Notes under the pieces: model-generated | The model's input: the letters and a program-made list of their open reading frames with translations, nothing else | The model's database searches: none | Told to the model about the DNA's origin: nothing | Shown: one piece after another, positions 32,819 through 55,186 of the stretch | Layout of the letters: each line of letters opens with the position of its first letter | Numbering within the stretch: position 1 is the stretch's first letter | Program-made: the position numbers and the translations under genes | Source of the DNA: Candidatus Jorgensenbacteria bacterium GW2011_GWA1_48_11 | Lineage (GTDB): Bacteria; Patescibacteriota; Minisyncoccia; UBA6257; GWB1-50-10 | Reading direction: 5' to 3' | Length of the DNA: 62,027 bases | Assembly (NCBI GenBank): GCA_001003475.1 | Contig: LCPF01000005.1 | Location: 5,486 to 67,512, forward strand

Positions 32819-34642
32819 CTAGGGCTTATCGACGTTATCGAGAGCCTCCTTGATGGCTTCGCGTAAAACTTCGGTATTAATCTCTTTTTTGGGAAAAATC
32901 CGCGGTTTCTTTTCCGGGGCCGGATAAGCGTTTAATTCACTCAATCTCAATTCATGCTCTTTTTGTTCTTCGGCTGAAACCGCCGGCGGAACGATCGGAA
33001 CCGCTTTCGGAACGAACTTTTTGAAAAAAGATTGGCGCTTTTCCGGTTCCTGATGCAATTCTTCAGTTTGCGCCTGTTCCGTCTTGGTTTCAAACTCGAT
33101 ACCCAAGCCCGCCAAGTCGGAGAAATATTTCTCCTGGGTTTTAGCGGTCTTCATTGAACCGCGGCGCACCGGCGCCATTTCGCCGGCTTCGATCTTCGCA
33201 AAACAATCGCTGCAATAAACCGGCCGGCCCGGCGTCGGCTCAAAGGGTACGGTCGTTAATTTGCCGCAAGACGAACAAACAACTTCATGCTTTACGCCCC
33301 TGCCGGCTTCCGCCGAAGAGCCAGCCTGACTCATTATGCCGCTCCATTCCTCGATCTCCTTTTCGACGACTGCCCGCGGCCGGGAATAATACTTGTGGGA
33401 AGCTTCGATAATTTTCTTTTCCATCAATTCCGAAGTAACGACTTTAAAGGGCGGCAGAGTATTCGAGGAAAAAGGACGACTCGTCACGCCGTTGACCATC
33501 AACTTCAAGTAAACGCAGTAATTCGGCAAATTCACGATGTCTTGGATTGCAAATTCCGGCTCGAATTCTTTTTCCAAAAACTCGGCATCAGCCGCGCCGA
33601 CCCGAAAAACGACCATCGTGCCGACGTTGCCGAAAACCGCGTCCCGGACCTTGGTGGAAATGTCCGTTTCCAGCTGGCCGATATACTGATGGGCCAAAAT
33701 CAAATCCAGGCGGTATTTCCTGGCTTCGGAAAGGATGTTGGCGAAAGAATCGGTGGCGAAATTCTGGAATTCGTCGACGTAAAGGTAAAAATCCACCCTT
33801 TCTTCTTCGGGTAAACGTACCCGCTCCATGGCCGAAAGCTGGATTTTCGTAATAAGCATGCCGCCCAAAAGAGCGGAATTATCCTCGCCAATCCTGCCTT
33901 TTGAAACGTTAACGAGGAAAATCTTGCTACTGTTCATTATGTCAAAAATATCAATCGTGCTTTGGGACTGGCCGACGATATTCCTAATCAAGGCGGTGGA
34001 AAGAAATTGGCCGACTTTATTCTGAATCGGGGCAATGGCTTCATTGCGGAATTGATCCCGCCATTGTTCGTATTCGTGAACCCAAAAAGCTTTGACCACC
34101 GGATCTTTAAGGTTGGCGATGATCTTCTGCCGGTATTCTTTGTCCACCAAAATCCGGGTAATCCCCAAAAGCGTAGTGCCGGGGGTATCTAAAAGAGCCA
34201 TGATCGCATTATTCAGAATATATTCCATTCGGGCCGACCAGACATTGGACCAGATTTTCGTGAAAATGCCCATCAACCCCGAAGCGACCAAATGCTTGTA
34301 TTTCGGATCGGGCAATTCCAAAACGTTGAAACCGATGTGGAAATCGGTGTCGGCTGGATTGAAATAAATCACGTCTTTCATCCGCTCCTCGGGAATTTTT
34401 CCTAAAATGCTTTCCACGAGTTCGCCGTGAGGATCGACAACGCAAACGCCCTCGCCGTTCACGATATCCTGCACGATCATATTGTGGAGAAGAGCGCTCT
34501 TGCCGGTGCCGGTTTTACCGACGACGTACATATGCTGGCGGCGATCGCTCCGCTTAATGCCAAAAAGTCTATTTGCGTTTCGAAAATCCGTTCGGCCGAA
34601 ATAAACGACGTCCTTGTCAGTGTTTTCTAAATTGACAGCCAT
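32819..34642 (-). CDS. VirD4/TraD (type IV coupling protein)-like P-loop ATPase with a C-terminal zinc ribbon (ATPase-1)
   Basis: Walker A VVGKTGTGKS, Walker B FYLYVDEFQNF, and ARKYRLDLILAHQYIGQL. C-terminal CSSCGKLTTVPFEPTPGRPVYCSDCF. No TM segment. Confidence 0.65.
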   Translation of the reverse strand: MAVNLENTDKDVVYFGRTDFRNANRLFGIKRSDRRQHMYVVGKTGTGKSALLHNMIVQDIVNGEGVCVVDPHGELVESILGKIPEERMKDVIYFNPADTDFHIGFNVLELPDPKYKHLVASGLMGIFTKIWSNVWSARMEYILNNAIMALLDTPGTTLLGITRILVDKEYRQKIIANLKDPVVKAFWVHEYEQWRDQFRNEAIAPIQNKVGQFLSTALIRNIVGQSQSTIDIFDIMNSSKIFLVNVSKGRIGEDNSALLGGMLITKIQLSAMERVRLPEEERVDFYLYVDEFQNFATDSFANILSEARKYRLDLILAHQYIGQLETDISTKVRDAVFGNVGTMVVFRVGAADAEFLEKEFEPEFAIQDIVNLPNYCVYLKLMVNGVTSRPFSSNTLPPFKVVTSELMEKKIIEASHKYYSRPRAVVEKEIEEWSGIMSQAGSSAEAGRGVKHEVVCSSCGKLTTVPFEPTPGRPVYCSDCFAKIEAGEMAPVRRGSMKTAKTQEKYFSDLAGLGIEFETKTEQAQTEELHQEPEKRQSFFKKFVPKAVPIVPPAVSAEEQKEHELRLSELNAYPAPEKKPRIFPKKEINTEVLREAIKEALDNVDKP

Positions 34643-34961: not shown

Positions 34962-36695
34962 TCACGCAACTTCTGATTGATAGCACTGCTCGCAATAGAC
35001 GATTTCTTTCCTGTCCGATGAATAGGGAGTTTCAAATTCGTTGGAGCAGTGACGAGAACCATGGAAATGTTTAACGGTATTCCGATAGCCCCCGCCTTCG
35101 GCCGCTTCGCCGCCACAGCGGCAATTACTTTTCCATAAACGATTGGGACCGCGCGCCGTAAATCTGCGGCTATGCCGGCAGTCGGGACAGAACCGCGGCA
35201 ACGGAATTTCCAGTTTCTTATAAAAATCAAATTCATTGGGAATGATGAGATAATTTTTCTTGCAATTCAGGCAACTAAAAACCTGCCCGGGCACGTCAAG
35301 ATCGCCGATATCTTTTATCGAATCGGGAATTTTATCCCAAGAAACCGTTTCTTTGCCGTAAGTGCCGCGCGGATAATCCTCCCATTTGTAGCCTTTGTCC
35401 GCCGCCTCATCTTTGATCAACGGAAACTGTTCAATCGCCGCTGATTCGTTATAACCGAAAGTGCTTACGTCCGCTGGGAAAAATTCGCCGTATTCCCCTC
35501 TTTTTTTCATGTCTTCAATGATCCGATTTTTCAACCTATCGTAAGAATCTTTATCGTATTGCTTGTTCAAAATGCAGCGATTCTTATTGCGAAGGCCGAT
35601 TGAACCAAAGCAATTATTCGAATCGAAACAATAAAAAGAGTAACTCATGAAAGTACACGTCCAACAAGTGCTCGAACAAATATAATTTGCCGTATCGATG
35701 CCGCAATTCATCGAATTGTAAATCATCTCGGCGCCCCGGCCGGCTGTATCGCAATCGACGCAATCCTTAGCGTTACGCCAGATATGGACGCCGTATTTGG
35801 AATTTTCGGCGTCATAGCAGTGGAAACAATAACGGCAGCTTTTGGCATTGTTGATGTAATTACCGCTGCAACCGGGCGCCATCACGATTTCGGCAAATTT
35901 ACGGGGTTGAACGGCGATAAATTCCCGGAATTTTTTTCCCATTTCTTGAACACCGTTATAAGTATCTAACCCGGCTTCAGCCAAAAATTTCTCGTATTCG
36001 GCTTTAGTTTTCTGCTCATTCCAAATGCAATATTTTTTCTGTCGTAAATTAACGCAGCCGATGCAATCGGAACAGCCGCGACAATCCAACAAAAAATAGC
36101 CGTCATTGCAGTTCTCGCAACCCTTGCTGTAGAAAAGGCGGTAAGAACCGTAGCAATCGTCGCTTTCATAAGAAAGCTCGGTTTTGTGGGAAAAAGAGAC
36201 ATCAATAAGGTCCTTGCACTCCTGAATCCAGTAACAATGAGTGCAGTTTTCGTTATTCGAAGACTCAACGATCATGTAGCAATTCTTGTTGTCGGCAGAA
36301 ATATTGACGTATTCGGAATTCACGCTCCGAACATAGATGAGCGAAAGTTTGGGAATTTCTTTCCACAAATCCTCAAATTGACCGAAAAAAGACTTCTCGG
36401 GATCATAATCACGGCCGCAATCAACGGGATTCCATTTGTCCGAAAACCAGCAATCGTGACAATAAACCGTGTAGGGCTTATTCGGACTGTACATCGAAAT
36501 ATGCTCCTTACCGCACAAATCACACTTGCGCTTATAGAAAACGCGCTCGTTTCGGAACATTAATCTTCTTTGCGCCCGGCAAAGCGGGCACATTTTCGGC
36601 GCTGGTACGCCGAACTTGTCATAGAAAGCGAAATCATCGGTTTCTACCCGAAAATCCTGACGGCACTGAAAGCATTTTTTAATTTCGTTTCTCAT
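34962..36695 (-). CDS. Cys-rich multi-zinc-ribbon repeat protein, array member P1
   Basis: 577 aa with 43 Cys (hand count). Contains CFQCRQDF..FYDKFGVPAPKMCPLCRAQRR, CDLCGKE..VYCHDCW, two L-R-x-K-x-x-C-I-x-N modules, and CLNCKKNY..FYKKLEIPLPRFCPDCR. The tail is EIVYCEQCYQSEVA. Confidence 0.85.
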   Translation of the reverse strand: MRNEIKKCFQCRQDFRVETDDFAFYDKFGVPAPKMCPLCRAQRRLMFRNERVFYKRKCDLCGKEHISMYSPNKPYTVYCHDCWFSDKWNPVDCGRDYDPEKSFFGQFEDLWKEIPKLSLIYVRSVNSEYVNISADNKNCYMIVESSNNENCTHCYWIQECKDLIDVSFSHKTELSYESDDCYGSYRLFYSKGCENCNDGYFLLDCRGCSDCIGCVNLRQKKYCIWNEQKTKAEYEKFLAEAGLDTYNGVQEMGKKFREFIAVQPRKFAEIVMAPGCSGNYINNAKSCRYCFHCYDAENSKYGVHIWRNAKDCVDCDTAGRGAEMIYNSMNCGIDTANYICSSTCWTCTFMSYSFYCFDSNNCFGSIGLRNKNRCILNKQYDKDSYDRLKNRIIEDMKKRGEYGEFFPADVSTFGYNESAAIEQFPLIKDEAADKGYKWEDYPRGTYGKETVSWDKIPDSIKDIGDLDVPGQVFSCLNCKKNYLIIPNEFDFYKKLEIPLPRFCPDCRHSRRFTARGPNRLWKSNCRCGGEAAEGGGYRNTVKHFHGSRHCSNEFETPYSSDRKEIVYCEQCYQSEVA

Positions 36696-36734
36696 GCGAT
36701 TTCCGCGTTATCCTTCAACGTAGCTCAGGATCAA

Positions 36735-38528
36735 TCAGACGACCTCTGATTGATAGCATTGTTCGCAATATACAATTTCCGGCCGGTCCGGCGCATAGGA
36801 CGTCTGTACCGTGTTCGGACAAGGGCCGTCACCGTGGAAATGTTTCACCGTGTTCATATATCCTCCTTTGTCCGATTTCGCGCCGCCGCACTCGCACATC
36901 CGGTCAAAAAGCTTTCGCGGCAAGAGCTTCGCCACGCGGTCCTTATGGCGCTGGAGCGGTGCGCGGCGCGGGAGCGGCAAACCCATTCGCCGGTAGAACG
37001 CGAGTTCCATCGGAATTATTTTATACGGCTTCGCACTTACTTCGCATTTCAAAACCTTCTCCAGCACATCATCCTTCACGTCCTTAATGTCATCAGAGAT
37101 TTCATACTCCGAAAACTGCACATTCATTTCCGATTCGTAGTCGCTCCACGTATAACCTTGCGCAAGTGCCTCATCACGTGTGAGTAGGTAATAGTCCATC
37201 GCCGCGGTTTCGTTGTATCCAAAAAGTGAGAGGTCGGCCGGGAAAAATTCTCCGTAACGATACTCCCTGCCGAGCATATCCACGTAGGGCACCTTCATCA
37301 TTTGGTCGCGTATCTCCGCAACTTTTGTGCGGTATTCTTCTTCCGAGTATTGTTTATTCAATATGCAGTTTTTCTTATTCCGAAGCCCCACGCATCCAAA
37401 ACAATCCTCACAATCCGCAATCGCAAAACAGTACTCCAAATTAAAGGAGTGGGCCTGTTTCAGTGGGTCCGTCCCCATACAATAAGAAACAAATTTGGAA
37501 TTGTAGACTCCTCCCCCACTTGAACATTCGTAGCTAAGCTCTGCGGCACCGTGGGAAGTTTCGTCATAACTATCCTTTATCCACCCTGAGATGAAGAGGA
37601 ATTTTGAATCTTCCACTTTCTCACTATCGAACACGTAGCGTGCATTTTTAGACTCGTTGATGTTGTTGCCTGTCGAGTTTACCGACTTGAAAATCGCGCT
37701 GTAACGACGTGGTATCGAGTGCCATACTGGCGTAGCTTTTTCCCGCAACTCCGCTGCTGCGGTATGCGACGAGATCGGGTGTGCCTTAAAAAAATCATCA
37801 TATTCCTTTTGGGAAACCTGCTTGTTGAAGAGTACGTATTTCTTATTTCGAAGACCCGCACTTCCGATGACGTTTGTGCAGTTGCGGCAATCGATGGAGA
37901 AAAACACGTCCTGACAGTCAAAACAATCACGCGAGAAAAACACGCGATAGCATCGCATACATCCGATATTTTCGTAACAAAACTCACTATTCAAAAGCCA
38001 GTGATTATCAAAGGAATCCTTCCCGTATAGTTCGTAAGTGTTGTATGCGGAATCTTGGTTGTAATGGCCTCCAACATTCAGATAGCAATTTTTGTCGTCC
38101 GTTTCCTGGTTCACCCAATCACTGTTCACCACATTCCCGTTATACATGGAAACGTGGGGCACCAAATGGAGTAGCTTCTTGTACTGAGCGAAGAACGGCC
38201 GCTGCGGATCAAAATCCATTCCGTATGAAAGCACGTCCCATTTGTCCGAGTGCCAACAGTCACGGCAGTACGTGGGATATGGCTTGTCGGGCGAGATACG
38301 CGATACCACTTCTTTCCCGCATAGATCACACTTCCGTTTGTAGAGCGAGCGCTCATTCCGAAACGCAATTCGCCGTTTCTCGCGACACTCGGGGCAAAAC
38401 GTCGGCGGCGGCACTTGGATTTTTTCATAAAACGCGAAGTCTTCCGGTTCGATGACGAATGAACCATGACAGTTTTGACAGGTCGAAGACACTGAGCCTG
38501 TCGAATGTGTTTTAGTTTCAGAATTCAT
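36735..38528 (-). CDS. Cys-rich multi-zinc-ribbon repeat protein, P2
   Basis: 597 aa. CQNCHGSFVIEPEDFAFYEKIQVPPPTFCPECR and CDLCGKE..TYCRDCW. The tail is EIVYCEQCYQSEVV. The C-proximal ribbon has lost its Cys residues (LPRRAPLQRH). Confidence 0.85.
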   Translation of the reverse strand: MNSETKTHSTGSVSSTCQNCHGSFVIEPEDFAFYEKIQVPPPTFCPECREKRRIAFRNERSLYKRKCDLCGKEVVSRISPDKPYPTYCRDCWHSDKWDVLSYGMDFDPQRPFFAQYKKLLHLVPHVSMYNGNVVNSDWVNQETDDKNCYLNVGGHYNQDSAYNTYELYGKDSFDNHWLLNSEFCYENIGCMRCYRVFFSRDCFDCQDVFFSIDCRNCTNVIGSAGLRNKKYVLFNKQVSQKEYDDFFKAHPISSHTAAAELREKATPVWHSIPRRYSAIFKSVNSTGNNINESKNARYVFDSEKVEDSKFLFISGWIKDSYDETSHGAAELSYECSSGGGVYNSKFVSYCMGTDPLKQAHSFNLEYCFAIADCEDCFGCVGLRNKKNCILNKQYSEEEYRTKVAEIRDQMMKVPYVDMLGREYRYGEFFPADLSLFGYNETAAMDYYLLTRDEALAQGYTWSDYESEMNVQFSEYEISDDIKDVKDDVLEKVLKCEVSAKPYKIIPMELAFYRRMGLPLPRRAPLQRHKDRVAKLLPRKLFDRMCECGGAKSDKGGYMNTVKHFHGDGPCPNTVQTSYAPDRPEIVYCEQCYQSEVV

Positions 38529-38558
38529 GGAATTTCAATATTATGCTAATAACAAAAC

Positions 38559-40253: not shown

Positions 40254-41956
40254 GCGATTTCCTTGAGATAACACTGGCGGCAAAAGACTTTTGCGGCTTC
40301 TTCCTCGTTATAAGGCGACTCCATGCTCTTGCCGCAACCGGCGCAGACGCGCGGATTACGGCTGTTATCTTTTACCCAGATATTGAGTTTCTCATTTATC
40401 CGGCAATGGGGGCATTCCCGCGACAAAGGCACGTTCATCTGCCGATGGAAAGCCAATTCCATTTCTATTATCCGGTAGGCCCGGCCGCAATTCGAACAAG
40501 CAATCTTTTCCTTAAGAATCGAATCCGGCGTTTCTTTTATGTGATCCGGCAGATCGGCGGCTTTGATGGTCCTTTCGTACTCGCTCTGCTCACTTTCCCA
40601 CCAGCCGTATTTTTTCGCCAAGGTTTCGTTTTTCGTCAAAGGAAAAAAATTCTGGGCCAGCGTCACATTATAAGCATAAGGCGAAAATTCCGGCGGGAAA
40701 AATTCGCCGTAGCGATATACATTCCCCCGAGCATCAACAAAAGGCTTATCATTCATTTGTTCAATGATCCTGGCTCTAAGTTTTTCGAAATCTTCCTTCG
40801 AATACTGTTTGTTGAAAATGCAATAATTTCCCCTCTTCACCGAAACGCAGCCAAAGTGATGGGCGCCGCCCGTTGAAGACTTGCAATATTGGGCATCAGA
40901 AAGATTAGTCCCCAGCTCATGAGAAAAGAATACGAGCGTCGAATTCTCGCCGAGTACGCCGCTTTCGTAAGAAAGTGAGAGGTTGTCGCCCCACATCGAA
41001 ACGTCATAACAGTCCTTATTGGAGGGCCCCCACATCCGGAATAAGTAACGGCAGTCCTCGGCGTTATAAACCTCAATGCAATCTTTGGCGTTCTTGGAAA
41101 AGAAAACGTTAGGCCCCGTGCAATTTTCGGCGAATTCATTGTATTCGGACTTGGGTATCTGCGTTTGCCAATGCTTTTCCGCTTTTTCTTGAACTGTCTT
41201 GTAAACCTTATAAGAGCCCAGATCGTACTTCCCTATTTCTTTGAAATAATCCTCCTTTGAATATGGCTTGTTAAAAATATAATATTTCTTGTTTTTCAGG
41301 TTGGCCGAGCCGAAACAGTTCTGGCAATTTTGGCAATCGCGGCAAAAAACGCAATCGACCGATTCGGAAAGCTGGTGACGCGAACCGATGCAACGATTTG
41401 TCTTATAAGAATGCATCGAATCATAACCCATTTGACTCTCCATTATGGCCGTACAGTCAAACATCGTCTGACTGTAACCAATGTAATAGCCGTAAGCGCA
41501 ATCTTCATTGTAATTTGCCTGGAATAAAAGATAGCAATTCTTCGAATGACCGATGTCGTGATTGAAAGGCGAATTTTGAACGGTTACCAGGTCAGCCGAT
41601 AAGCCCAAAAGCGGAACCTCATGCCACAATTCGTTCAACTGCTCGAAAAAGGGTCGACCGAAATCATAGTTGCGGCCATAAGATAAGGGATCCCAATTAT
41701 CAGACCACCAGCAGCTGGGACAATAAACTTTGTAAGGCACATCTGACGGATAAACGGAAATGTTGAGTTTATGGCATAGATCGCAGGTTCGCCGATAAAG
41801 GGTTATCGGATTCCAAAAAAGCAACCGCCGCTGGAACCGGCAATCCGGACAAAAAGTCGGCGGCGGGACTTGGATTTTCCCGTAGAAATCGAAATCCTCG
41901 GGATCGATGACGAAATCTCGTTTACAATTCTGGCATTGGCGAGTTTCTTTGTTCAT
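40250..41956 (-). CDS. Cys-rich multi-zinc-ribbon repeat protein, P4
   Basis: MNKETRQCQNCKRDF..FCPDCR, CDLCHK..VYCPSCW, and the shorter tail CAGCGKSMESPYNEEEAAKVFCRQCYLKEIA. Confidence 0.85.
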   Translation of the reverse strand: MNKETRQCQNCKRDFVIDPEDFDFYGKIQVPPPTFCPDCRFQRRLLFWNPITLYRRTCDLCHKLNISVYPSDVPYKVYCPSCWWSDNWDPLSYGRNYDFGRPFFEQLNELWHEVPLLGLSADLVTVQNSPFNHDIGHSKNCYLLFQANYNEDCAYGYYIGYSQTMFDCTAIMESQMGYDSMHSYKTNRCIGSRHQLSESVDCVFCRDCQNCQNCFGSANLKNKKYYIFNKPYSKEDYFKEIGKYDLGSYKVYKTVQEKAEKHWQTQIPKSEYNEFAENCTGPNVFFSKNAKDCIEVYNAEDCRYLFRMWGPSNKDCYDVSMWGDNLSLSYESGVLGENSTLVFFSHELGTNLSDAQYCKSSTGGAHHFGCVSVKRGNYCIFNKQYSKEDFEKLRARIIEQMNDKPFVDARGNVYRYGEFFPPEFSPYAYNVTLAQNFFPLTKNETLAKKYGWWESEQSEYERTIKAADLPDHIKETPDSILKEKIACSNCGRAYRIIEMELAFHRQMNVPLSRECPHCRINEKLNIWVKDNSRNPRVCAGCGKSMESPYNEEEAAKVFCRQCYLKEIA

Positions 41957-43698
41957 ACGATTTCGCTGTTGTAACACTGCTCGCAATAAACATTTTTGAA
42001 TGTTGCCGGATCATGAGCTGACTGGATTTTAATTCCGCATTTTATGCACTTTCTCTCATAAAAAGTCATACTGATATCATATACTTCCCGAAAACGCTTT
42101 AATCGCACCGTTGGATGCTCGCGGGTCAAAGCAATATTATGACGTCTGTAGAAATCCAATTCGTATTTCATGACCCGGAATGGTTTCTGGTTTTTCTCAT
42201 CGAAAATTATCTTGTCCAAAATATCATCTTTCACGTCCTTAATGCGATTCGGTAACTCTGACGACGTTATTATCTCTCCCTTAGTTTCGCTTTCCGGCAC
42301 CGGCGTTTCCGAAACATCATAACCGCATTTTCCGGCATTTTCATAATCGCTAAAACCGGGATAAGAATTGGCAAATGAAAGTTTATAGGGCACCGTCATC
42401 AATTCGGGCGGGAAGAACTCGCCGTATAATCCATTTTTAAGCATACCCGTCTTGATGTCGTCAACAATATTCCAATAATCATCTTCCGTATACTGCTTGT
42501 TAAGGACGCAGAACGATTTATTGTCCAGACCGATACAGCCAAAACAATCATGGCAGTTTTTGCAAAGATCGCAATATTCCATATTTCTACTGTTGTCAAT
42601 TTGCGAAGAAAAAAAGACGCGATAGTTATTGGCGGTACTAACAGTACTAAGTTCATAGCAAAGTTCGCCGCCGCCGCCGCCAAAAAGGTCGTATGAATCC
42701 TTATAGCCAAAACAACCCAAAGAATAATTAACGTTATCGCTGTTATAAAGAAAACCGCTGAAATAACAATTGCGAGAATTCTCCAGCCAATCGCCGTAGC
42801 AATTGACCGATCGAAAATTGTGATCCGGCTTGTAATGCGCGTCTTCCTTCAATTTTCCGTATTCCTGAAGCAAGTCTTCCAATTTGCGGAAATCACCCAA
42901 GTTAATAGATTTTAACTTTTCATAATATTCTTCCGGCGAATAAGATTGATTGCGGAAATAGAACTTTTTATTCCTCAGGCCCGAGGACATAAAACAGTGA
43001 CTGCAATTGCGGCAATCAAAAAGAAAAAAGTTCTCCAGGCAATTTTTTGATTGCTCACAAAATAAACAACGAAATGAATCATAAAGCGCCTGGGACCGAT
43101 AACAATTGTCGCAATTCCATAAACTGTCGCAATCAACGCAATCCCGGCTGCCATCGCAACATTGAAAATAATAAAGGTTTTCCCCGCTTAAAGTGTCAAA
43201 AGTCAGATAACAATTCTTAAGATGGGTGGACATATTCGAATAATCGCTGTTGAAATTAGTCGAATCAGTCACAAGATTGGGACGCGGCATCGCAAGTTGA
43301 AGACCGCGGAAATTCCCGAAAAAATCCTGCGATTCATCCCAAACCCGCCCATAACCGAACGGATCCCACTCATTCGAGAACCAAACCTGGTGTTCAAAAA
43401 TCTTATGCGGTGTTCCGGGCGGATAAGCGGCGAGAACCTGCTTTCCGGAAAAAGCGGATTTTACCCAAAATAGATTGTAAGAATTTTGATAAGAGGCGCG
43501 CCGCCGCCACCGTTCTTTCGTTTTTATCGTCGGCAACGGCACTTTTAGTTTCTTATAAAAACCTATATCTTCCGGCCGAACGTAAAATTTTTCGCCGGAA
43601 AAGCGGCAAATTCGCCATTGCCCGCCTTGTTCATCAAGTTTCAAACCGGCGAAATAATCATTAATGGCTTTATCAAATTTGGGAGTTTTTGAGGTCAT
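41953..43698 (-). CDS. Cys-rich repeat protein, P5 (N-terminal ribbons degenerate)
   Basis: The module backbone is kept (FYVRPEDIGFYKKLKVPLPT), but the CxxC pairs are replaced (CRFSGEKF, IKTKERW, SAFSGKQ, IFEHQVW). The tail is KCIKCG...VYCEQCYNSEIV. Confidence 0.8.
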   Translation of the reverse strand: MTSKTPKFDKAINDYFAGLKLDEQGGQWRICRFSGEKFYVRPEDIGFYKKLKVPLPTIKTKERWRRRASYQNSYNLFWVKSAFSGKQVLAAYPPGTPHKIFEHQVWFSNEWDPFGYGRVWDESQDFFGNFRGLQLAMPRPNLVTDSTNFNSDYSNMSTHLKNCYLTFDTLSGENLYYFQCCDGSRDCVDCDSLWNCDNCYRSQALYDSFRCLFCEQSKNCLENFFLFDCRNCSHCFMSSGLRNKKFYFRNQSYSPEEYYEKLKSINLGDFRKLEDLLQEYGKLKEDAHYKPDHNFRSVNCYGDWLENSRNCYFSGFLYNSDNVNYSLGCFGYKDSYDLFGGGGGELCYELSTVSTANNYRVFFSSQIDNSRNMEYCDLCKNCHDCFGCIGLDNKSFCVLNKQYTEDDYWNIVDDIKTGMLKNGLYGEFFPPELMTVPYKLSFANSYPGFSDYENAGKCGYDVSETPVPESETKGEIITSSELPNRIKDVKDDILDKIIFDEKNQKPFRVMKYELDFYRRHNIALTREHPTVRLKRFREVYDISMTFYERKCIKCGIKIQSAHDPATFKNVYCEQCYNSEIV

Positions 43699-45461
43699 AC
43701 CACTTCGGCGTTGTAACACTGCTCGCAATAGACGATCTCCGATCTTTCGGACGAATAAGCCGTCTTGAATTTATTGGGACAGCGGCCAGTCGGATGGTGG
43801 GGATGGCTAACGATATTTTTGTGGACTTTATAATCGCAAAGGCATTGCCTCTCCCAAAGCTTTAAGGGATTACGGCTTCGAAAACGCTGATAATGACGGC
43901 AGCTAGGACATAATCTCGGCAACGGAACGTTCATCCGCCTATAAAGATTAAGCTCGTCCGGAATAATTCGGAAGGCTTTAGTGCAATATTCATTGCGCTT
44001 CCCATCGTGCAAACAAGCGATGATTTCTTTCGTAATTTCATCTTTCGCGTCTTTTATGTGGTCTGGTAATTCGGCGGCGTTGACGGTCGGCTTATAATCA
44101 TGGCTTTCTTCTTTCCCCCACCGATATCCTTTTTTCTCTGCTTCTTCGCGGGTTAAGGGATAAAAATCTTTGGCCGTAGACGTGTTATGGGCAAAAAGCG
44201 ATATTTCCGGCGGGAAAAATTCGCCGTATTGGTAAGCCAAACCCCTTTTATCCACGTAAGGCATTTCGGTCATGTGCTTTATTATCCTAAGCACCAGTTC
44301 TTCGTATTCCTGTCTGGAATACTGCTTGTTCAGAATGCAATATTGTTTCTTACGCAAAGACACGCAACCGAAGAGATCGCTCACGCCATTCCGGCAGGAC
44401 TGCGAATAAGAAACGCTTCTCGCTTCAGGCCAAACGTCGGCAGAAAGCTTAACGTCGTAGGCGTGAACGCCAGTCGTCGAACATTCGTAACATCGCTCCA
44501 TAACACAACAACCATTATTGACGTCGTAAATATCCTTAGCATTAAATAAAAGCATGCAGAAACGGGAGTCTTCGGTGTCGCTGGTAAAAAAACAATCCTT
44601 GCAGTTCTTTGTATTGCCCAGGGAATCGCCGGTTGAATCGACGATATGGTTATCGATTATGAACTTATATAAAGACTTCCTTTTAATTTCGTTGAATTCG
44701 AATTCATATTCCCGCAATTTTGCATACGAACCCGTATCAATTTGCGCCATTCTCGCTTTATATTCCTCTTTAGAAAGCTGCTGATTTTTAAAAACGTAAG
44801 ACTTATGCCTTAGATTCGTGCTCATAAAGCAGTTTTGGCAGCCCTTCAAATCAAAGCCGAACACCACATCCAAGGAATCATGGCAGCGATCGGCGAAGAG
44901 CATACGGGCCGAATCCATTGACTGCAGGGTTTGATAACAAAACTGGCAACGAATCGCGGCGAAAGCGTCAACTACGCTTTTGGAATTCAAAATCCGATAA
45001 CCGTATTGGCAATCTTCGCAGTCTGAACCGGAAGTCAAAAGATAGCAATTCTTGCAGTCGGTAATTTGGTTGCAATAATCGCTGTTCGTACTTCTGTCTA
45101 TCTGCAAAGCGATCTGCGGCGTAACCTGCATCAAATCGCTGAATTGGCTGAAAAATGGGCGTGAAAAATCATAATCCCGGCCATAAGCCAAAGCGTCCCA
45201 ACCGTCAGAATACCAGCAAGCGCGGCAATATACCGGAAACGAAACGTCAGCCGGGTACATGGCAATGATCTCTTTTTTACACAGATCGCAGTGCCGTTTA
45301 TAAAGGGTCTGATCATCACGCCACAACAACCGCCGAATAAGCCGGCACTCCGGACACCAGGTCGGTGGCGGGACATCTATCTTTTTGTAAAAATCAAAAT
45401 CCTCCGGTTCGATCCAAAATTCTTGATGACAGTTTTGGCATTTTCTTGATTCTCTGTTCAT
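43695..45461 (-). CDS. Cys-rich multi-zinc-ribbon repeat protein, P6
   Basis: MNRESRKCQNCHQEF..WCPECR, CDLCKKE..VYCRACW. The tail is EIVYCEQCYNAEVV. The ORF track's 48-codon upstream extension is not homologous to the other members. Confidence 0.85.
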   Translation of the reverse strand: MNRESRKCQNCHQEFWIEPEDFDFYKKIDVPPPTWCPECRLIRRLLWRDDQTLYKRHCDLCKKEIIAMYPADVSFPVYCRACWYSDGWDALAYGRDYDFSRPFFSQFSDLMQVTPQIALQIDRSTNSDYCNQITDCKNCYLLTSGSDCEDCQYGYRILNSKSVVDAFAAIRCQFCYQTLQSMDSARMLFADRCHDSLDVVFGFDLKGCQNCFMSTNLRHKSYVFKNQQLSKEEYKARMAQIDTGSYAKLREYEFEFNEIKRKSLYKFIIDNHIVDSTGDSLGNTKNCKDCFFTSDTEDSRFCMLLFNAKDIYDVNNGCCVMERCYECSTTGVHAYDVKLSADVWPEARSVSYSQSCRNGVSDLFGCVSLRKKQYCILNKQYSRQEYEELVLRIIKHMTEMPYVDKRGLAYQYGEFFPPEISLFAHNTSTAKDFYPLTREEAEKKGYRWGKEESHDYKPTVNAAELPDHIKDAKDEITKEIIACLHDGKRNEYCTKAFRIIPDELNLYRRMNVPLPRLCPSCRHYQRFRSRNPLKLWERQCLCDYKVHKNIVSHPHHPTGRCPNKFKTAYSSERSEIVYCEQCYNAEVV

Positions 45462-45630
45462 GGGTTTTTGTCCCGATTCCTTTGGAATCGCGGATCCTCG
45501 ATTTTGTATTCTCGCTTCGCAAGGACAAAATCGGGACAATTCTGGCAGTTTTTCGTCTCGGTTAAACTCATTTGAATACAAATATAGACCAGTCGGCGTT
45601 CCCATTAACGCTTCTCTTGCAAGCTTTTCC

Positions 45631-49563: not shown

Positions 49564-51326
49564 ACCACTTCAGCGTTATAGCATGCTTCGCAGTAGACGA
49601 CTTCTTTTCTCTCCAGGGAATAGGAAGTTTCAAATTCGTTAAGACACCTACTATCAAGATGATGTTGGTGCTTAATCGAGTTTTCATAAACCTTATAATC
49701 ACACATACACTGTCGGTGCCAGAGCTTGATCGGATTATACAAGGCGCGCCGTTCTCCCCTCCTGCAACCGGCACAAAGCCTGGGAATGGGTATTTCCGTT
49801 TTGCGGTAAAATTGAAGCTCTTGAGGAGTTATCTTGAACGCCAAGGTGCAGTTATGCCCGCATTCCTGCTTGTGTCCGCATCCGATAACCTGATCCAAAA
49901 TCTCGTCCTTTATCTCTTCGATCGAATTTGGAATCTCTTCTGCCTTTAAAGTAACTTGGTGTTCCCTTGCGGCCGACTCCATCCAGCCGTACCCAAGACG
50001 AATCGCATCGTCTCTCTTGATCGGGAAATAAAATTGAGTCAGCGCTTCATTGTACGCGAACGGCGAAAATTCAACTGGAAAAAACTCGCCGTATTTATAA
50101 ACATTGCCTTTCAAATCAATATGGGGCTTGTCGCTCATTCCTTTTATTATCCTCTCCTGAAGCGATTCATATTCATCCTTATCGTACTGCTTGTTCAAAA
50201 TGCAGTATCGCTTGTTCCGAAGGCCGATGCAGCCGAAAAGATCCTGACTGACGCGACAATAATCGCAATATTGCAAGCGGGCACAATTTTCAAACGTATT
50301 GGTGGAAAAAAAGATATTTGAATCGAGATAGCCAACATTCACGCCCTCATAAAGAAGGGATGATTCCTTATCGCCCACCCCGTACATGTCCTGAACGTCT
50401 TTAGCGCGGCTCATTTGGGCGCCGTATTTCACGTCCTCGCAATTATGGGAATTGAAGCAATATTTTGCATTCTTGCAATAAGTCAGATTGCTGCCGGAGG
50501 AATTCGTGCATTTAACCATATTTGCGTACTTATGAAGCGCATTCTCCCGCAGACGGACGTACTCCGAATACAACTCTATTTGAATTTTGTAACCCCGGTC
50601 CATGGCAGACATCCTTTTGCGATATTCTTCTTCCGTAAGCTGCTCGTTGCGAAAGACAAATTTCTTATTGCGCAAATTGCTGCTCATGAAACAATTCGAC
50701 GAATTACGGCAATCGAAAAGGTACGAACCGTCCAAACAGTCCTTGCAATCGGATATGAATTTGCAGTTTACGCAGTGCTCTGAATCCAAAGCCTCATAAA
50801 TGCTTTCGGAACCCATAACCACCATGGAATCGAACGCATCTCGGCAATTCCATGCGCTTTTGGAATAAGAGACATTGTCGGAACTGATTGTAGACGGCGA
50901 AAGATATACGTTTTTGGAAAACCAGGTGTAATCAGAATAAGGCGAGTTTTCGTTCTGATAGGCTTCCAGGCTCGGTCTGGGCACCGTATCTGAAAGCTCC
51001 TTCCACTGAACGAAGAAGTTCTTATTCGGGTTGTAGTCGCGGCTGTATTCCATCGGGTCCCACTTATCCGACCACCAGCACTCGTTGCAATAGACGGGAA
51101 ACATCACTTTGCTTGAATGGTGGGAAAGCGTTTCCTTGCCGCAAAAGGCGCACTTGCTTTTATGCATATTGAATTCGTTCCGGAAAAGCATTCTTCTTTT
51201 CATCCGGCACTCCGGACACCAAGTAGGCGGCGGGACTTTTATACGTTCATAGAACTGAAAATCCGAAGCTTCTATTTCAAAAGAGGTTTTACAGTTCTGA
51301 CAGATTATTGTTTCAGCATTAGCCAT
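49560..51326 (-). CDS. Cys-rich multi-zinc-ribbon repeat protein, P9
   Basis: MANAETIICQNCKTSF..WCPECR, CAFCGKE..VYCNECW. The tail is EVVYCEACYNAEVV. The start is taken at M13 of the track ORF. Confidence 0.85.
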   Translation of the reverse strand: MANAETIICQNCKTSFEIEASDFQFYERIKVPPPTWCPECRMKRRMLFRNEFNMHKSKCAFCGKETLSHHSSKVMFPVYCNECWWSDKWDPMEYSRDYNPNKNFFVQWKELSDTVPRPSLEAYQNENSPYSDYTWFSKNVYLSPSTISSDNVSYSKSAWNCRDAFDSMVVMGSESIYEALDSEHCVNCKFISDCKDCLDGSYLFDCRNSSNCFMSSNLRNKKFVFRNEQLTEEEYRKRMSAMDRGYKIQIELYSEYVRLRENALHKYANMVKCTNSSGSNLTYCKNAKYCFNSHNCEDVKYGAQMSRAKDVQDMYGVGDKESSLLYEGVNVGYLDSNIFFSTNTFENCARLQYCDYCRVSQDLFGCIGLRNKRYCILNKQYDKDEYESLQERIIKGMSDKPHIDLKGNVYKYGEFFPVEFSPFAYNEALTQFYFPIKRDDAIRLGYGWMESAAREHQVTLKAEEIPNSIEEIKDEILDQVIGCGHKQECGHNCTLAFKITPQELQFYRKTEIPIPRLCAGCRRGERRALYNPIKLWHRQCMCDYKVYENSIKHQHHLDSRCLNEFETSYSLERKEVVYCEACYNAEVV

Positions 51327-53217: not shown

Positions 53218-54666
53218 TTAAATCAACGGTTCGGGATTGGAATCTTCTTTTTTCTCGCCGGATGATTTGCCGGTAATGATTTCTTTCTCCTGGGCGCTCC
53301 GGAAAATAGTCGCTTCTTCTTCGGCGATCAATTTCTTGGCGTCATCGACGGGAATCGTGTATTTCCGGCGCGAAGCCGCAACGATCTCTTTTTTGAAAGA
53401 TCTGTGATTGGGCGCCAAGACTTTCAGGGTCTCGGCGGAAAAGGGATCGTAAGTTTCACCGTCAATCGTCATCTTGACGTAAAACTCCTGCATGCCGAGA
53501 TTGATCATGTCTTTCGTATCAAAGATCGGCGCCATTTCCGGCTTCAGCTTCACCGCATCGTCGCCGCCCACCCGGAAAATGATGATCGAACCGACATTGC
53601 CCAAAACCGAAGCCTGCACCCTCGGCAAAAGCTGACTCATATACTGGTGGGCGACCGTAAGACAAAGGCCGTATTTGCGCGCCTCGGACATCAAATTCTC
53701 GAAAGTTTCCGTGACCAGATTATGGAACTCGTCAACGTAAAGATAGAAATCGTGGCGTTCGGCTTCCGGAAGCGATGCCCGCGCCATGCCCGCCTGCTTG
53801 ATCTTCGTAATGAACATGGCCCCGAAAAAGCTGGCGTTCTCCTCGCCTAGCCTCCCTTTTGAAAGATTGATGAGGATGATCTTTTTCTCCTGCATCAGTT
53901 TTTCCAGATCGATCTTGTTTCCCTTTTGGCCGAAAATGTTCCGCAACATGGGATCGGACAAGAACTGGCCGAGCTTGTTCACGAGAGGGATGATGGCGTC
54001 CGTGTCGAACTTTTCCGACCAATCGGCGAATTCAATGGCCCAGAAACGCTTGACCATGTCGTCTTCGATGTATTCCACGACTTTCTGACGGTAATTGCGG
54101 TCGGTCAACATCGAAATCATGCCCCGCATGGTGGCATGGGGATAATCCAAAAGCGCCAGGCAGGTGAAACGGAAAACGTGCTCCAACCGCGGCGTCCAGT
54201 TCGCGCCGAACTGCTTTTCCATCACTTCGATCAAACCCTGGGTCAATTGGTGCTTGAAACTCACGTCAATGTTGGCCAAAGGATTGAAAGAAGAAGGATA
54301 ATCCTTGTCGGAAGGATCAATGATCACTACGTCTTCAATGCGATTCTCCGGCACGAAATCCAAAATTGCTTCGATCACGTCGCCGTGAGGATCGATCAAG
54401 CAAAGGCCGTGCCCATTGGCCACGTCCTGCCGGATCAAAAGCTCAAGAAGCTTGGATTTGCCGACACCGCTCTTGCCGACGACGTAAAGATGGCGACGCC
54501 GGTCGATCCGTTTAATCCCAAAAATATACTTCTTCTCCTCGAGAGAGGCCACGTAATTGGTCCGACCAATGAAAGAAACGTCCTTAGGATCGATCCGGCC
54601 GTACATCGGCAGATCCGGCGGCGGCGGCGCATATTTGATTATTTGAATTTTTCCAGCCTTAGACAT
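53218..54666 (-). CDS. VirD4/TraD-like P-loop ATPase (ATPase-2), paralog of 32819-34642 without the zinc ribbon
   Basis: Walker A VVGKSGVGKS, Walker B FYLYVDEFHNL, and ARKYGLCLTVAHQYMSQL. The start is taken at MSKAGK (54666), 1 nt after the upstream stop. The track ORF extends to 54768. Confidence 0.65.
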   Translation of the reverse strand: MSKAGKIQIIKYAPPPPDLPMYGRIDPKDVSFIGRTNYVASLEEKKYIFGIKRIDRRRHLYVVGKSGVGKSKLLELLIRQDVANGHGLCLIDPHGDVIEAILDFVPENRIEDVVIIDPSDKDYPSSFNPLANIDVSFKHQLTQGLIEVMEKQFGANWTPRLEHVFRFTCLALLDYPHATMRGMISMLTDRNYRQKVVEYIEDDMVKRFWAIEFADWSEKFDTDAIIPLVNKLGQFLSDPMLRNIFGQKGNKIDLEKLMQEKKIILINLSKGRLGEENASFFGAMFITKIKQAGMARASLPEAERHDFYLYVDEFHNLVTETFENLMSEARKYGLCLTVAHQYMSQLLPRVQASVLGNVGSIIIFRVGGDDAVKLKPEMAPIFDTKDMINLGMQEFYVKMTIDGETYDPFSAETLKVLAPNHRSFKKEIVAASRRKYTIPVDDAKKLIAEEEATIFRSAQEKEIITGKSSGEKKEDSNPEPLI

Positions 54667-54667
54667 A

Positions 54668-55186
54668 TTAAAGTATTTCCAGTTCCTTGAGGAAGGCTTC
54701 GTAAGTGTCCAAAATCTCATTGGCGTCGTGGGGCTTGATCTCGTAATCGGGCGTGTGAACCAATTCATTCCTGATCTTATGAACCCGCCAAAGCTTGTCC
54801 AGCGTTTTGAAGTCGTCGGTGGTCAAACGCTCCAACCGATCGGCCATATGCTCGCCCCTGATGCCCAATTGTTTCAAGGCGTCGTCCGTAAATTTATCGG
54901 CCTCGATCACCGCCATAAGATAGGACTGCGGCGGATTGGTTTTGGCCTTGCCGCGAATGGCTTGCCAGCGCTTCAAAAAGATCGGATTCTTGAGAATCGT
55001 CTTTTTGGCGATGCCGGCGGGATTTTTCACGAAAACAGGACGATAATGCAAGGCTTTTATAAAAATAAAGATAAAGAAAACAAAAAGCAGAATGTCGATG
55101 AAAATGACAACCTCCCTGACGGCATAATAAATGCTTACCCAGGGAATCTGCAAAAAATAATCGTAAATTTGAACGAAAACAGCCAT
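54668..55186 (-). CDS. Membrane protein with a C-terminal helical domain carrying an R-x4-H motif
   Basis: TM helix VVIFIDILLFVFFIFIFI, and C-terminal WRVHKIRNELVHTPDYE. Confidence 0.55.
   Translation of the reverse strand: MAVFVQIYDYFLQIPWVSIYYAVREVVIFIDILLFVFFIFIFIKALHYRPVFVKNPAGIAKKTILKNPIFLKRWQAIRGKAKTNPPQSYLMAVIEADKFTDDALKQLGIRGEHMADRLERLTTDDFKTLDKLWRVHKIRNELVHTPDYEIKPHDANEILDTYEAFLKELEIL

What the first reader, a model, noticed from the sequence alone, without database searches (positions are those of the whole stretch)
32819..33250. ATPase-1 carries a C-terminal zinc ribbon of the same type as the paralogs' second ribbon
Seen in sequence: the ATPase-1 tail reads C-S-S-C-G-K-L-T-T-V-P-F-E-P-T-P-G-R-P-V-Y-C-S-D-C-F. 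The paralogs' second ribbon reads C-D-L-C-G-K-E-x-I-S-x-Y-S-P-x-K-P-Y-x-V-Y-C-x-D-C-W. The paralog C-terminal tails read E-I-V-Y-C-E-Q-C-Y. All three share the C-x2-C-G-K ... P ... V-Y-C-x-[DQ]-C-[FWY] pattern. ATPase-2 lacks this domain. Inference: domain sharing between the ATPase and its neighbouring array supports a functional link, for example homotypic ribbon-ribbon docking or a common ligand. From memory, P-V-Y-C-x-D-C-type ribbons also occur on other CPR and archaeal proteins, so the module may be promiscuous.
Basis: partly seen in the sequence, partly recalled or inferred. Interest (0 to 1): 0.6.

Follow-up and report, generated by a model that had tools for sequence, protein, structure and literature searches.

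The report
Known zinc finger on coupling-type ATPase
The motif is real, but it is an already catalogued zinc finger that this motor ATPase carries in nearly all related ultra-small bacteria, most of which lack the neighbouring cysteine-rich proteins, so the shared finger does not itself show that the two work together.

Summary
Observation confirmed, with imprecise coordinates. ATPase-1 (window 32819-34642, minus strand) carries CSSCGKLTTVPFEPTPGRPVYCSDC at residues 456-480 (window 33203-33277). It is a clear CxxC-x17-CxxC finger (Pfam PF23477, 59 bits; NCBIfam TIGR04272, 60 bits). It is not terminal: 127 residues follow it. Its predicted fold is a treble clef, not a classical zinc ribbon.

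The paralogs' second ribbon and their C-terminal ribbon are diverged members of the same family. Profile-profile probability is 95-96%. With the cysteines masked, z is 4.3 and 5.4. They are reciprocal best non-family hits in this genome.

In 151 genomes of the class, the fingered ATPase was found in at least 101 and the paralog family in only 23. Eighty-four genomes have the finger without paralogs, and two have paralogs without a fingered ATPase. The paralogs instead track ATPase-2, which lacks the finger (20 of 23 genomes).

The module is promiscuous: 7,014 protein clusters match, and the best are small tandem-finger proteins.

The finger is most likely the tethered recruitment module of a split, orphan VirD4-like motor. 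Gene order, not the finger, supports a link to the array. This scan reached the same conclusion on other genomes (e1-2028959, e1-5094098).

The parts
32819..34642 (-). ATPase-1: a soluble VirD4/TrwB/TraD-like P-loop ATPase of 607 aa. Walker A is GKTGTGKS at residues 42-49 and Walker B is DE at 290-291. No transmembrane segment.
   Evidence: PF10412 55.6 bits, PF02534, PF12696. The AF2 core has pLDDT above 90. Best fold match is TrwB, E 2e-13. No hydrophobic segment found.
33194..33289 (-). CxxC-x17-CxxC treble-clef zinc finger, residues 452-483. The Cys ligands are C456, C459, C477 and C480 (encoded within 33203-33277).
   Evidence: PF23477 59.1 bits against a cut-off of 27; TIGR04272 60.2 bits against 36. 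pLDDT about 90, with strands 452-455 and 462-465 and helix 478-485. Present in 120 of 120 homologue clusters.
33299..33334 (-). Disordered linker, residues 437-448, between the ATPase core and the finger.
   Evidence: pLDDT below 50 in the AF2 model. Length and sequence vary in alignment A1.
33092..33115 (-). Conserved short motif LAGLGIEF, residues 510-517, in the otherwise disordered tail.
   Evidence: The consensus LAxLGIEF appears in the 45-sequence alignment. Coordinates.
32834..32878 (-). Conserved C-terminal amphipathic helix, residues 589-603 (consensus IxELRxALxxxL).
   Evidence: AF2 helix 590-604; pLDDT averages 90 over residues 591-600. L593 is nearly invariant.
36450..36524 (-). 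P1 ribbon 2 (residues 58-82): a diverged CxxC-x17-CxxC finger.
   Evidence: PF23477 15.1 bits, below threshold; 20.8 bits in the six-frame search. hhalign 95% to the ATPase finger.
38256..38330 (-). P2 ribbon 2 (residues 67-91).
   Evidence: PF23477 16.8 bits. ATPase-finger HMM 17.1 bits, E 0.0023 against 12,948 ORFs.
41711..41785 (-). P4 ribbon 2 (residues 68-92).
   Evidence: Motif scan and alignment.
40271..40345 (-). P4 C-terminal ribbon 2', short exact x17 form (residues 548-572).
   Evidence: PF23477 20.6 bits; 26.1 bits in the six-frame search.
41974..42048 (-). P5 C-terminal ribbon 2', short exact x17 form (residues 561-585).
   Evidence: PF23477 20.9 bits. 26.6 bits in the six-frame search, 27.1 with neighbouring matches in the frame, which is at the cut-off.
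45216..45290 (-). P6 ribbon 2 (residues 106-130).
51078..51152 (-). P9 ribbon 2 (residues 71-95).
   Evidence: ATPase-finger HMM 15.9 bits.
53218..54768 (-). ATPase-2: a fast-evolving paralogue of ATPase-1 without a finger. This is the ATPase whose presence tracks the paralog family.
   Evidence: PF10412 and PF01935. 43% identical to ATPase-1. Orthologues in 24 of 151 genomes, 20 of them paralog-bearing. Forms a long-branch clade.
55194..56585 (-). TM463: a two-transmembrane protein, likely the membrane half of the split coupling protein. In genomes without paralogs it lies immediately upstream of the fingered ATPase.
   Evidence: Synteny in 8 of 8 paralog-less loci. Homologous to the N-terminal 355 aa of the fused ATPase-3, E 8.7e-18.

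Best explanation
The element is a single CxxC-x17-CxxC treble-clef zinc finger (Pfam PF23477 zf_Tbcl_2, NCBIfam TIGR04272). A disordered linker of about 12 residues tethers it behind the core of a soluble TrwB/VirD4-like ATPase. A largely disordered tail follows, carrying two conserved elements: LAxLGIEF and a terminal helix.

Shown:
- The finger is an ancestral, almost universal feature of this ATPase lineage in the class. In the ancestral operon (secD, secF, a Sigma70_r4/HARE-HTH protein, TM463, ATPase) it occurs without any Cys-rich paralog.
- The paralogs carry two diverged copies of the same finger family, one at each end. Each copy follows a different CxxC-x24-CxxC finger.
- The paralog family co-occurs with the finger-less ATPase-2. 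ATPase-2, TM172 and the paralogs lie between TM463 and ATPase-1.

Inferred:
- TM463 plus ATPase-1 form a split coupling-protein-like motor.
- The finger and tail form its flexible recruitment arm. This would be analogous to the C-terminal extensions of TraD, VirD4 and DotL, which bind adaptors or substrates, or to the tethered gamma domain of FtsK.
- The finger's ligand is common to the whole class. It could be a nucleic acid or a conserved protein, but not the paralogs.
- The paralogs' fingers are independent uses of a promiscuous module. At most they bind the same kind of ligand.
For: Identity of the domain: (59 and 60 bits). Public records already name the orthologues 'CxxC-x17-CxxC domain-containing protein'.

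Ancestral and universal:
- 120 of 120 best homologue clusters have one finger at the same position.
- ATPase-1-like genes are present in 149 of 151 class genomes.
- PF23477 scores above its cut-off in 123 of 151 genomes.
- 101 of 101 listed large-frame finger hits lie at the ATPase gene. 84 of these are in genomes where no paralog was found with either a single-protein or a profile query.

Same family in the paralogs.

Ancestral operon and insertion of TM172, ATPase-2 and the paralogs.

Orthology: ATPase-1 of paralog-bearing genomes is nested inside the universal fingered clade, and ATPase-2 is a separate long-branch clade.

ATPase-2 and paralog co-occurrence is 20 of 23 against 3 of 127.

Split motor: TM463 is homologous to the N-terminal part of the fused ATPase-3.

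Flexible tether and treble-clef topology. TrwB-like core.

Zinc binding by this domain family was measured in Methanosarcina mazei small proteins (PMC12704099).

Orphan VirD4-like ATPases are known to be very common in Patescibacteria and possibly exapted for other roles (PMC12102498).
Against: - No ligand of the finger is known for any family member. No solved structure matches by sequence or by fold.
- The finger's net charge is only mildly positive (+1.4 ± 1.8), so nucleic-acid binding has no direct support.
- Some orthologues have CCCH or degenerate ligand sets while keeping the VPFxPDxxRPVYC core. Zinc may therefore be dispensable in some lineages.
- Within this genome the family is confined to ATPase-1, the 15 paralogs and one 59-aa protein. 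This leaves room for a shared ligand.
- The recruitment-arm role is reasoned by analogy with other coupling proteins and was not tested here.
Confidence: 0.65

Rival explanations
1. One reading: the ATPase-1 finger docks homotypically on the paralogs' fingers. This would recruit the array proteins to the motor as cargo or as subunits.
For: - The fingers belong to the same family.
- Within this genome the family is limited to ATPase-1, the paralogs and one small protein.
- Paralogs lie within about 5 kb of the ATPase-1 orthologue in at least 12 of 23 paralog-bearing genomes.
Against: - 84 genomes have the fingered ATPase but no paralog was found.
- G145 (95% complete) and G017 (99% complete) have 5 to 9 or more paralogs, but no fingered ATPase was found.
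- 9 of 15 paralogs lack zinc ligands in ribbon 2.
- Paralog ribbons score no better against an ATPase-specific finger model (14.5-17 bits) than against the generic Pfam model (18-27 bits). They are therefore not specially related to the ATPase finger.
- The paralogs track the finger-less ATPase-2.
Confidence: 0.07
2. Common-ligand model: the ATPase finger and the paralog fingers bind the same third party, for example DNA, RNA or one docking site on the membrane partner TM463. The paralogs would then be delivered to, or compete at, the place where the motor's arm binds.
For: - The family is shared, with conserved non-Cys positions: GK after the first knuckle, an aromatic and a Pro in the loop, and V-Y before the second knuckle.
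- The best database relatives are small proteins with tandem fingers. Their alignment consensus shows Arg/Gly-rich leaders and Lys-rich tails, and one is fused to ribosomal protein S3 C-terminal domain.
- Basic linkers (RRLxFRNExxLYKRKC) precede the paralog fingers.
- A Sigma70_r4/HARE-HTH DNA-binding-type protein is conserved in the operon.
Against: - No ligand has been shown for any member of the family.
- The finger segments themselves are nearly neutral.
- Many paralogs have lost the Cys ligands.
- Sharing a promiscuous module predicts nothing specific.
Confidence: 0.18
3. Intramolecular or structural role: the finger and the C-terminal helix fold back on the ATPase hexamer, or on each other, to regulate ATP hydrolysis or oligomerisation. 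No external ligand would be involved.
For: - The terminal helix (590-604) and the finger are both predicted with high confidence although flanked by disorder.
- A finger followed by a distal helix also appears in the consensus of the stand-alone finger proteins.
- CCCH and degenerate variants keep the loop motif.
Against: - A 12-residue disordered linker and an 80-residue disordered spacer suit a reach-out arm better than a fixed regulatory lid.
- The same finger works as a free-standing tandem protein without any ATPase.
- I could not inspect inter-domain contacts or the predicted aligned error of the model.
Confidence: 0.1

Closest known systems
CxxC-x17-CxxC domain (NCBIfam TIGR04272 cxxc_cxxc_Mbark; Pfam PF23477 zf_Tbcl_2, 'probable treble clef zinc finger'), for example the zinc-binding small proteins A00184 and A01980 of Methanosarcina mazei (PMC12704099)
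   Same: The spacing is exact, and scores are well above both curated cut-offs. The predicted treble-clef topology agrees. The family is experimentally zinc-binding.
   Different: Here there is a single copy tethered to a 440-residue motor ATPase, rather than a free small protein or a tandem array. The paralog copies fall below the curated thresholds and often lack Cys ligands. No function is known for any member of the family.
Type IV coupling proteins TrwB (R388), VirD4, TraD and DotL
   Same: The nucleotide-binding and all-alpha domains are shared. The best structural match is TrwB. There are Pfam PF10412, PF02534 and PF12696 matches. The C-terminal extension beyond the core resembles those that bind adaptors in TraD and DotL (from my own knowledge of those systems).
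   Different: There is no N-terminal transmembrane domain; it is apparently supplied by the separate TM463 gene. No VirB4, relaxase or other T4SS gene is in the window, and PF03135 is absent from the genome. Only a weak AAA_10 gene lies on another contig. The gene is chromosomal and nearly universal in the class, next to secDF. I do not know of a zinc finger reported on classical coupling proteins.
Orphan VirD4-like T4CP homologues of Patescibacteria (PMC12102498)
   Same: This is the same protein class. That study counted 5,713 homologues in 2,918 genomes, only 148 of them near virB4, and suggested exaptation for other functions.
   Different: That paper does not mention zinc (a term search found 0 occurrences). 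The passages on T4CPs that I read say nothing of the split membrane partner or the Cys-rich paralog arrays.
FtsK/SpoIIIE gamma domain
   Same: The architecture is analogous: a hexameric translocase core, a flexible linker, and a small C-terminal recognition domain that loads the motor on its substrate (from my own knowledge).
   Different: The gamma domain is a winged helix that reads KOPS DNA. Here the domain is a treble-clef finger with an unknown ligand. The two are not homologous; this is a resemblance in working principle only, and it was not tested.

Membership tests
PF23477 zf_Tbcl_2 / TIGR04272 CxxC-x17-CxxC domain (ATPase-1 finger) | HMM score above the curated cut-off | tested here: met
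   59.1 bits against 27; 60.2 bits against 36; 64 bits in the six-frame genome search.
PF23477 zf_Tbcl_2 / TIGR04272 CxxC-x17-CxxC domain (ATPase-1 finger) | Four Cys arranged as CxxC, 17 residues, CxxC | tested here: met
   Residues 456-480. Conserved in 120 of 120 homologue clusters. CCCH or degenerate variants occur in 4 of 12 more distant orthologues.
PF23477 zf_Tbcl_2 / TIGR04272 CxxC-x17-CxxC domain (ATPase-1 finger) | Treble-clef topology: a knuckle in a beta-hairpin, with the last two ligands at the start of a helix | tested here: met
   AF2 predicts strands 452-455 and 462-465 and helix 478-485, with pLDDT about 90. This is a prediction only. Fold searches gave only weak matches to PHD, FYVE, RING and GATA-type fingers.
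PF23477 zf_Tbcl_2 / TIGR04272 CxxC-x17-CxxC domain (ATPase-1 finger) | Binds zinc | not testable with these tools
   Measured only for M. mazei family members (PMC12704099).
PF23477 zf_Tbcl_2 (paralog ribbon 2 and C-terminal ribbon 2') | HMM score above the curated cut-off | tested here: not met
   15.1-20.9 bits against 27 in protein scans. Only one C-terminal ribbon, in P5, reaches 26.6 bits (27.1 with neighbouring matches) in the six-frame search. The precomputed Pfam annotation of the 120 listed P1 homologue clusters never calls PF23477.
PF23477 zf_Tbcl_2 (paralog ribbon 2 and C-terminal ribbon 2') | Homology to bona fide members by profile-profile comparison, beyond the Cys spacing | tested here: met
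   hhalign 95.0% and 96.4%, against 8% for the ribbon 1 control. Cys-masked z of 4.3 and 5.4. Reciprocal genome-wide HMM hits.
PF23477 zf_Tbcl_2 (paralog ribbon 2 and C-terminal ribbon 2') | Four zinc ligands with x17 spacing | tested here: inconclusive
   Met in 6 of 15 N-terminal and 4 of 15 C-terminal copies. Nine N-terminal copies have lost Cys, and eleven C-terminal copies carry a roughly 23-residue Cys/His insertion.
Type IV coupling protein (VirD4/TrwB/TraD) | P-loop nucleotide-binding domain plus all-alpha domain with a TrwB-like fold | tested here: met
   PF10412 55.6 bits, PF02534, PF12696. Walker A and B residues are invariant. TrwB is the top fold match, E 2e-13, TM 0.65.
Type IV coupling protein (VirD4/TrwB/TraD) | N-terminal transmembrane domain in the same polypeptide | tested here: not met
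   No hydrophobic segment in ATPase-1. A homologous membrane part is encoded separately as TM463 and is fused in ATPase-3.
Type IV coupling protein (VirD4/TrwB/TraD) | Encoded with a T4SS (VirB4 and others) or a relaxase | tested here: not met
   None in the window. PF03135 is absent from the genome. Only a weak AAA_10 gene lies on contig C1. The neighbours are secDF and efp.
Classical zinc ribbon (two beta-hairpin knuckles) | Both Cys pairs sit in beta-hairpin knuckles | tested here: not met
   In both AF2 models the second CxxC sits at the N-terminus of a helix. This rests on prediction only.

The most novel reading that the evidence does not exclude
The diverged fingers at both ends of the Cys-rich array proteins would be address tags that copy the motor's own finger. 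They would bind the same docking site, on TM463, on the ATPase ring or on a shared nucleic acid. The array proteins would then be clients or cargo of a split, orphan VirD4-like motor of Patescibacteria. The ancestral fingered ATPase-1 and the derived finger-less ATPase-2 would form a two-motor hand-over system.
Probability: 0.12. Interest if true: 0.7.

Novelty: new member of a known kind. Interest (0 to 1): 0.3.

Why it matters
The finger on the ATPase is already catalogued, and public annotations already name these proteins after it, so little is new there.

1. **Array proteins carry the same finger.** The end-modules of the large uncharacterised Cys-rich family contain unrecognised, sub-threshold copies of the finger family. 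This gives that family its first domain assignment beyond PF13451.

2. **The finger is not the basis for a link.** The fingered ATPase belongs to a near-universal split motor (TM463 plus ATPase) next to secDF. The array proteins go with a derived, finger-less second ATPase. Anyone studying the orphan coupling-protein ATPases of Patescibacteria (an open question, PMC12102498) should not use the shared finger as evidence of interaction.

3. **The motor has a defined arm to test.** The motor carries a conserved tethered arm consisting of the finger, the LAxLGIEF motif and a terminal helix. Its ligand can be sought experimentally.

Tried and rejected
- **Complex prediction.** I tested the ATPase-1 finger region (residues 446-520) against the P1 N-terminal double-finger module (residues 1-110) with three zinc ions. 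Both chains used alignments. The score was 0.00 in both runs, so controls were not run. The tool's verdict is 'no answer'. This is neither support for nor evidence against binding.
- **PDB sequence search with the finger**. Nothing below E 0.5.
- **Fold search with the isolated finger model.** Foldseek against PDB gave a best E of 0.95. VIA-align against 48,161 chains gave a best Z of 3.6, to the HPV E7 CR3 domain, then RING, PHD and GATA-type fingers. This is too weak to name a structural relative.
- **Literature search** for TIGR04272, PF23477, zf_Tbcl_2 and IPR026363 found no papers.
- **ESM Atlas look-alikes** of the finger scored at most 0.81. These are leads only. They show PF23477-only small proteins in archaea and in other bacterial phyla.
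- **Nucleic-acid binding judged from charge.** The finger segments are nearly neutral, so I dropped charge as an argument.
- **Are the paralog ribbons derived specifically from the ATPase finger?** An ATPase-specific HMM does not score them better than the generic Pfam model. I rejected this as unsupported.
- **Could a single-protein query have missed diverged paralogs?** A 32-sequence profile search found the same 23 genomes.
Full report
**1. What is at the coordinates**

The finding lies in the 3' part of a 607-aa gene on the minus strand (window 32819-34642). The quoted string CSSCGKLTTVPFEPTPGRPVYCSDCF is residues 456-481. The four cysteines are encoded within 33203-33277. The finding's upper limit of 33250 therefore cuts off the first CxxC. 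The motif is also not terminal, because 127 residues follow it.

The protein matches type IV coupling-protein families: PF10412 at 55.6 bits, plus PF02534 and PF12696. Residues 452-483 match PF23477 zf_Tbcl_2 at 59.1 bits (cut-off 27). They also match NCBIfam TIGR04272, the 'CxxC-x17-CxxC domain', at 60.2 bits (cut-off 36). The 'ribbon' is therefore a catalogued domain.

Zinc binding by this domain family has been measured in Methanosarcina mazei small proteins (PMC12704099). No function is known for any member. A search for the family accessions in the literature found nothing.

**2. Layout of the region**

All the following genes are on the minus strand, listed in the direction of transcription (descending window coordinates):
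- secD and secF
- a 337-aa Sigma70_r4/HARE-HTH protein
- TM463, with two transmembrane segments
- TM172
- ATPase-2 (516 aa, no finger, 3 Cys)
- ten paralogs of about 590 aa (34962-53214)
- a 63-aa membrane peptide
- ATPase-1

The genome is 691 kb in 8 contigs and is a Patescibacteria genome. It holds five more paralogs on other contigs, making 15 in all. It also holds a third ATPase at two contig ends. That ATPase has an N-terminal membrane region fused to it and no finger.

**3. Are the ribbons one type?**

An alignment of the 15 paralogs shows the same two-finger module at both ends. The first finger has CxxC-x24-CxxC spacing and gives weak PF13451 matches. A basic linker follows, and then a second finger.

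- At the N-terminus, the second finger has the exact CxxC-x17-CxxC spacing in 6 of 15 paralogs. The other nine have lost cysteines.
- At the C-terminus, four paralogs have the exact x17 form. The other eleven carry a Cys/His-rich insertion of about 23 residues before the ...EIVYCEQCY knuckle.

Several tests show that these second fingers belong to the same family as the ATPase finger:
- Pfam gives only sub-threshold PF23477 matches, at 15-21 bits.
- In a six-frame search of the whole genome, the 16 best hits (E up to 0.04) are the ATPase-1 finger followed by 15 hits in open frames the size of the paralogs.
- Profile-profile comparison of 115 ATPase fingers with 116 paralog ribbon-2 segments gives 95.0% (E 3.9e-8). 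Against the short C-terminal ribbons it gives 96.4% (E 1e-9). The control against ribbon 1 gives 8%.
- I had selected these segments by their Cys spacing, so I masked the four Cys columns and permuted the remaining columns. This gave z = 4.3 and 5.4, and 0 of 20,000 permutations reached the observed score. The shared positions are GK after the first knuckle, an aromatic residue and a Pro in the loop, V plus an aromatic before the second knuckle, and D/Q inside it.
- An HMM built from ATPase fingers, run against all 12,948 ORFs of the genome, finds ATPase-1 itself first. It then finds a 59-aa stand-alone finger protein with x20 spacing (contig C1, 59401-59583), then five paralogs at E 0.002-0.015.
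- An HMM built from paralog ribbons finds all 15 paralogs at both ends. ATPase-1 is the first outsider, at E 7.7e-4.

AF2 predicts strand, knuckle, strand, a long loop, and then a helix starting at the second CxxC, with pLDDT about 90. That is a treble clef, as Pfam's name says, and not a two-hairpin zinc ribbon.

**4. Does sharing the finger link ATPase-1 to the array?**

The evidence says no.

*The finger is ancestral to the ATPase.*
- All 120 best homologue clusters (63-80% identity) have exactly one finger at the same position. Several are already named 'CxxC-x17-CxxC domain-containing protein' by NCBI or JGI.
- In an even sample of 151 genomes of the class, an ATPase-1-like gene is present in 149.
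- PF23477 scores above its cut-off in 123 of those genomes.
- All 101 listed hits in 513-775-aa frames lie at that genome's ATPase-1 match.

*The paralog family is much rarer.*
- It is found in only 23 of 151 genomes, whether searched with P1 or with a 32-sequence profile.
- 84 genomes therefore carry the fingered ATPase with no paralog found.

*The paralogs track the other ATPase.*
- In eight of eight paralog-less genomes examined, the gene order includes the Sigma70_r4/HARE-HTH protein, TM463 and the fingered ATPase. secD and secF lie upstream wherever the fetched stretch reaches them.
- In the paralog-bearing genomes, TM172, ATPase-2 and the paralogs lie between TM463 and ATPase-1.
- ATPase-2 orthologues occur in 24 of 151 genomes, and 20 of them are among the 23 paralog-bearing genomes. 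The paralogs thus follow the ATPase that lacks the finger.
- Two fairly complete genomes (G145 at 95%, G017 at 99%) have 5 to 9 or more paralogs, but no fingered ATPase was found in them.
- In a tree, ATPase-1 of the paralog-bearing genomes is nested within the universal fingered clade. ATPase-2 forms a separate long-branch clade.

*The module is promiscuous.*
- The same class holds many 60-220-aa proteins with one or two fingers.
- A finger profile searched against 1.84 billion representative proteins finds 7,014 at E ≤ 1e-3. The best 150 are 93-364-aa proteins with 2-5 tandem fingers, plus one 1,461-aa protein with 18 matched stretches. 149 of the 150 carry PF23477, and almost none has another real domain.
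- The paralog ribbons score 18-27 bits with the generic Pfam model and 14.5-17 bits with the ATPase-specific model. They are not specially close to the ATPase finger.

**5. What it most likely is and does**

The ATPase-1 core is confidently TrwB-like (pLDDT above 90; TrwB E 2e-13). Walker A and B residues are invariant, and there is no transmembrane segment.

TM463 is homologous to the N-terminal 355 residues of the fused ATPase-3 (E 8.7e-18). Together, TM463 and ATPase-1 therefore look like a coupling protein split into a membrane half and a motor half.

Behind the core the model shows, in order:
- a disordered linker (residues 437-448)
- the finger
- about 80 disordered residues with a conserved LAxLGIEF motif
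- a confidently predicted terminal helix (residues 590-604)

I read this as a flexible recruitment arm. This is analogous to the C-terminal extensions of TraD, VirD4 and DotL, or to the tethered gamma domain of FtsK. That is an inference from architecture, and the ligand is unknown. It must be something common to the whole class, so it is not the paralogs.

A direct docking model is unlikely, at about 0.07. The one complex prediction I ran gave no verdict and counts neither way.

**6. Comparison with what is known, and novelty**

The domain is known, and the fusion is already annotated in public records. Orphan VirD4-like ATPases are a recognised puzzle in Patescibacteria (PMC12102498). That paper does not mention zinc (a term search found no occurrence), and the passages on T4CPs that I read say nothing of the split membrane partner.

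This scan reached the same verdict on other genomes (e1-2028959 and e1-5094098). It has also described the paralog family itself (e1-4952682).

Three things are added here:
- the sub-threshold assignment of both paralog end-fingers to PF23477
- the counts showing that the finger is independent of the paralogs
- the link between the paralogs and the finger-less ATPase-2

**Verdict.** The domain is known, and the paralog copies are new members of a known kind. The proposed inference from domain sharing is not supported. Interest is modest (0.3).

Noticed in passing
window 55194-56585 (TM463); G000 contig C1 1-1605 and contig C3 48657-49553 (ATPase-3): TM463 is homologous (25% identity over 435 aa, E 8.7e-18) to the N-terminal part of a third ATPase, in which that part is fused to the motor domain. 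TM463 plus ATPase-1 therefore look like a coupling protein split into two genes. ATPase-3 is broken across two contig ends. The roughly 50-aa overlap between the two pieces is not identical, so they may be two separate genes.
   Followed up: partly
G000 contig C1 59401-59583 (minus strand), outside the window: A 59-aa stand-alone finger protein with CxxC-x20-CxxC spacing and the LPFEPDPSR loop motif. After ATPase-1 itself it is the closest relative of the ATPase-1 finger in this genome (22.8 bits).
   Followed up: partly
L001 9416-9553, L005 9346-9483, and the ATPase genes L007 8048-9778 and L008 7615-9570: Orthologues of ATPase-1 in other families have CCCH fingers (CxxC...CxxH) or degenerate ones (CxxG or CxxD in the first knuckle). 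They still keep the VPFxPDxxRPVYC loop, so the loop rather than the metal site may be the conserved functional surface.
   Followed up: no
window 34962-53214 and five paralogs on contigs C1 and C2: Nine of the 15 paralogs have lost zinc ligands in the N-terminal second finger. Eleven have a Cys/His-rich insertion of about 23 residues in the C-terminal one, which may form an extra metal site.
   Followed up: partly
window 56766-57779: A 337-aa protein with a Sigma70 region 4 domain and a HARE-HTH domain is conserved between secF and TM463 in all 12 related loci examined. It may be a regulator or DNA-binding partner of the motor operon.
   Followed up: no
window 40250-40283, 41953-41986, 43695-43728: The mechanically listed TTG starts make neighbouring paralog ORFs overlap by 34 nt. 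The family alignment suggests the true starts are internal ATG codons just before the first CxxC, so the genes probably abut rather than overlap.
   Followed up: no
G118 contig C4 666-2126 (not fetched): One paralog-bearing genome has two fingered ATPases: one in the paralog cassette (67% identity to ATPase-1) and a second elsewhere (56%). This hints that the cassette may have carried its own copy.
   Followed up: no
protein among P0241-P0390: One of the 150 best tandem-finger proteins also carries a ribosomal protein S3 C-terminal domain (E 4.8e-26). This is a possible hint at an RNA or ribosome context for the finger family.
   Followed up: no
G000 contig C1 177212-178012: A 607-aa frame with a weak AAA_10 match (44.8 bits summed) may be the genome's VirB4-like ATPase. 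It lies on a different contig from the window.
   Followed up: no
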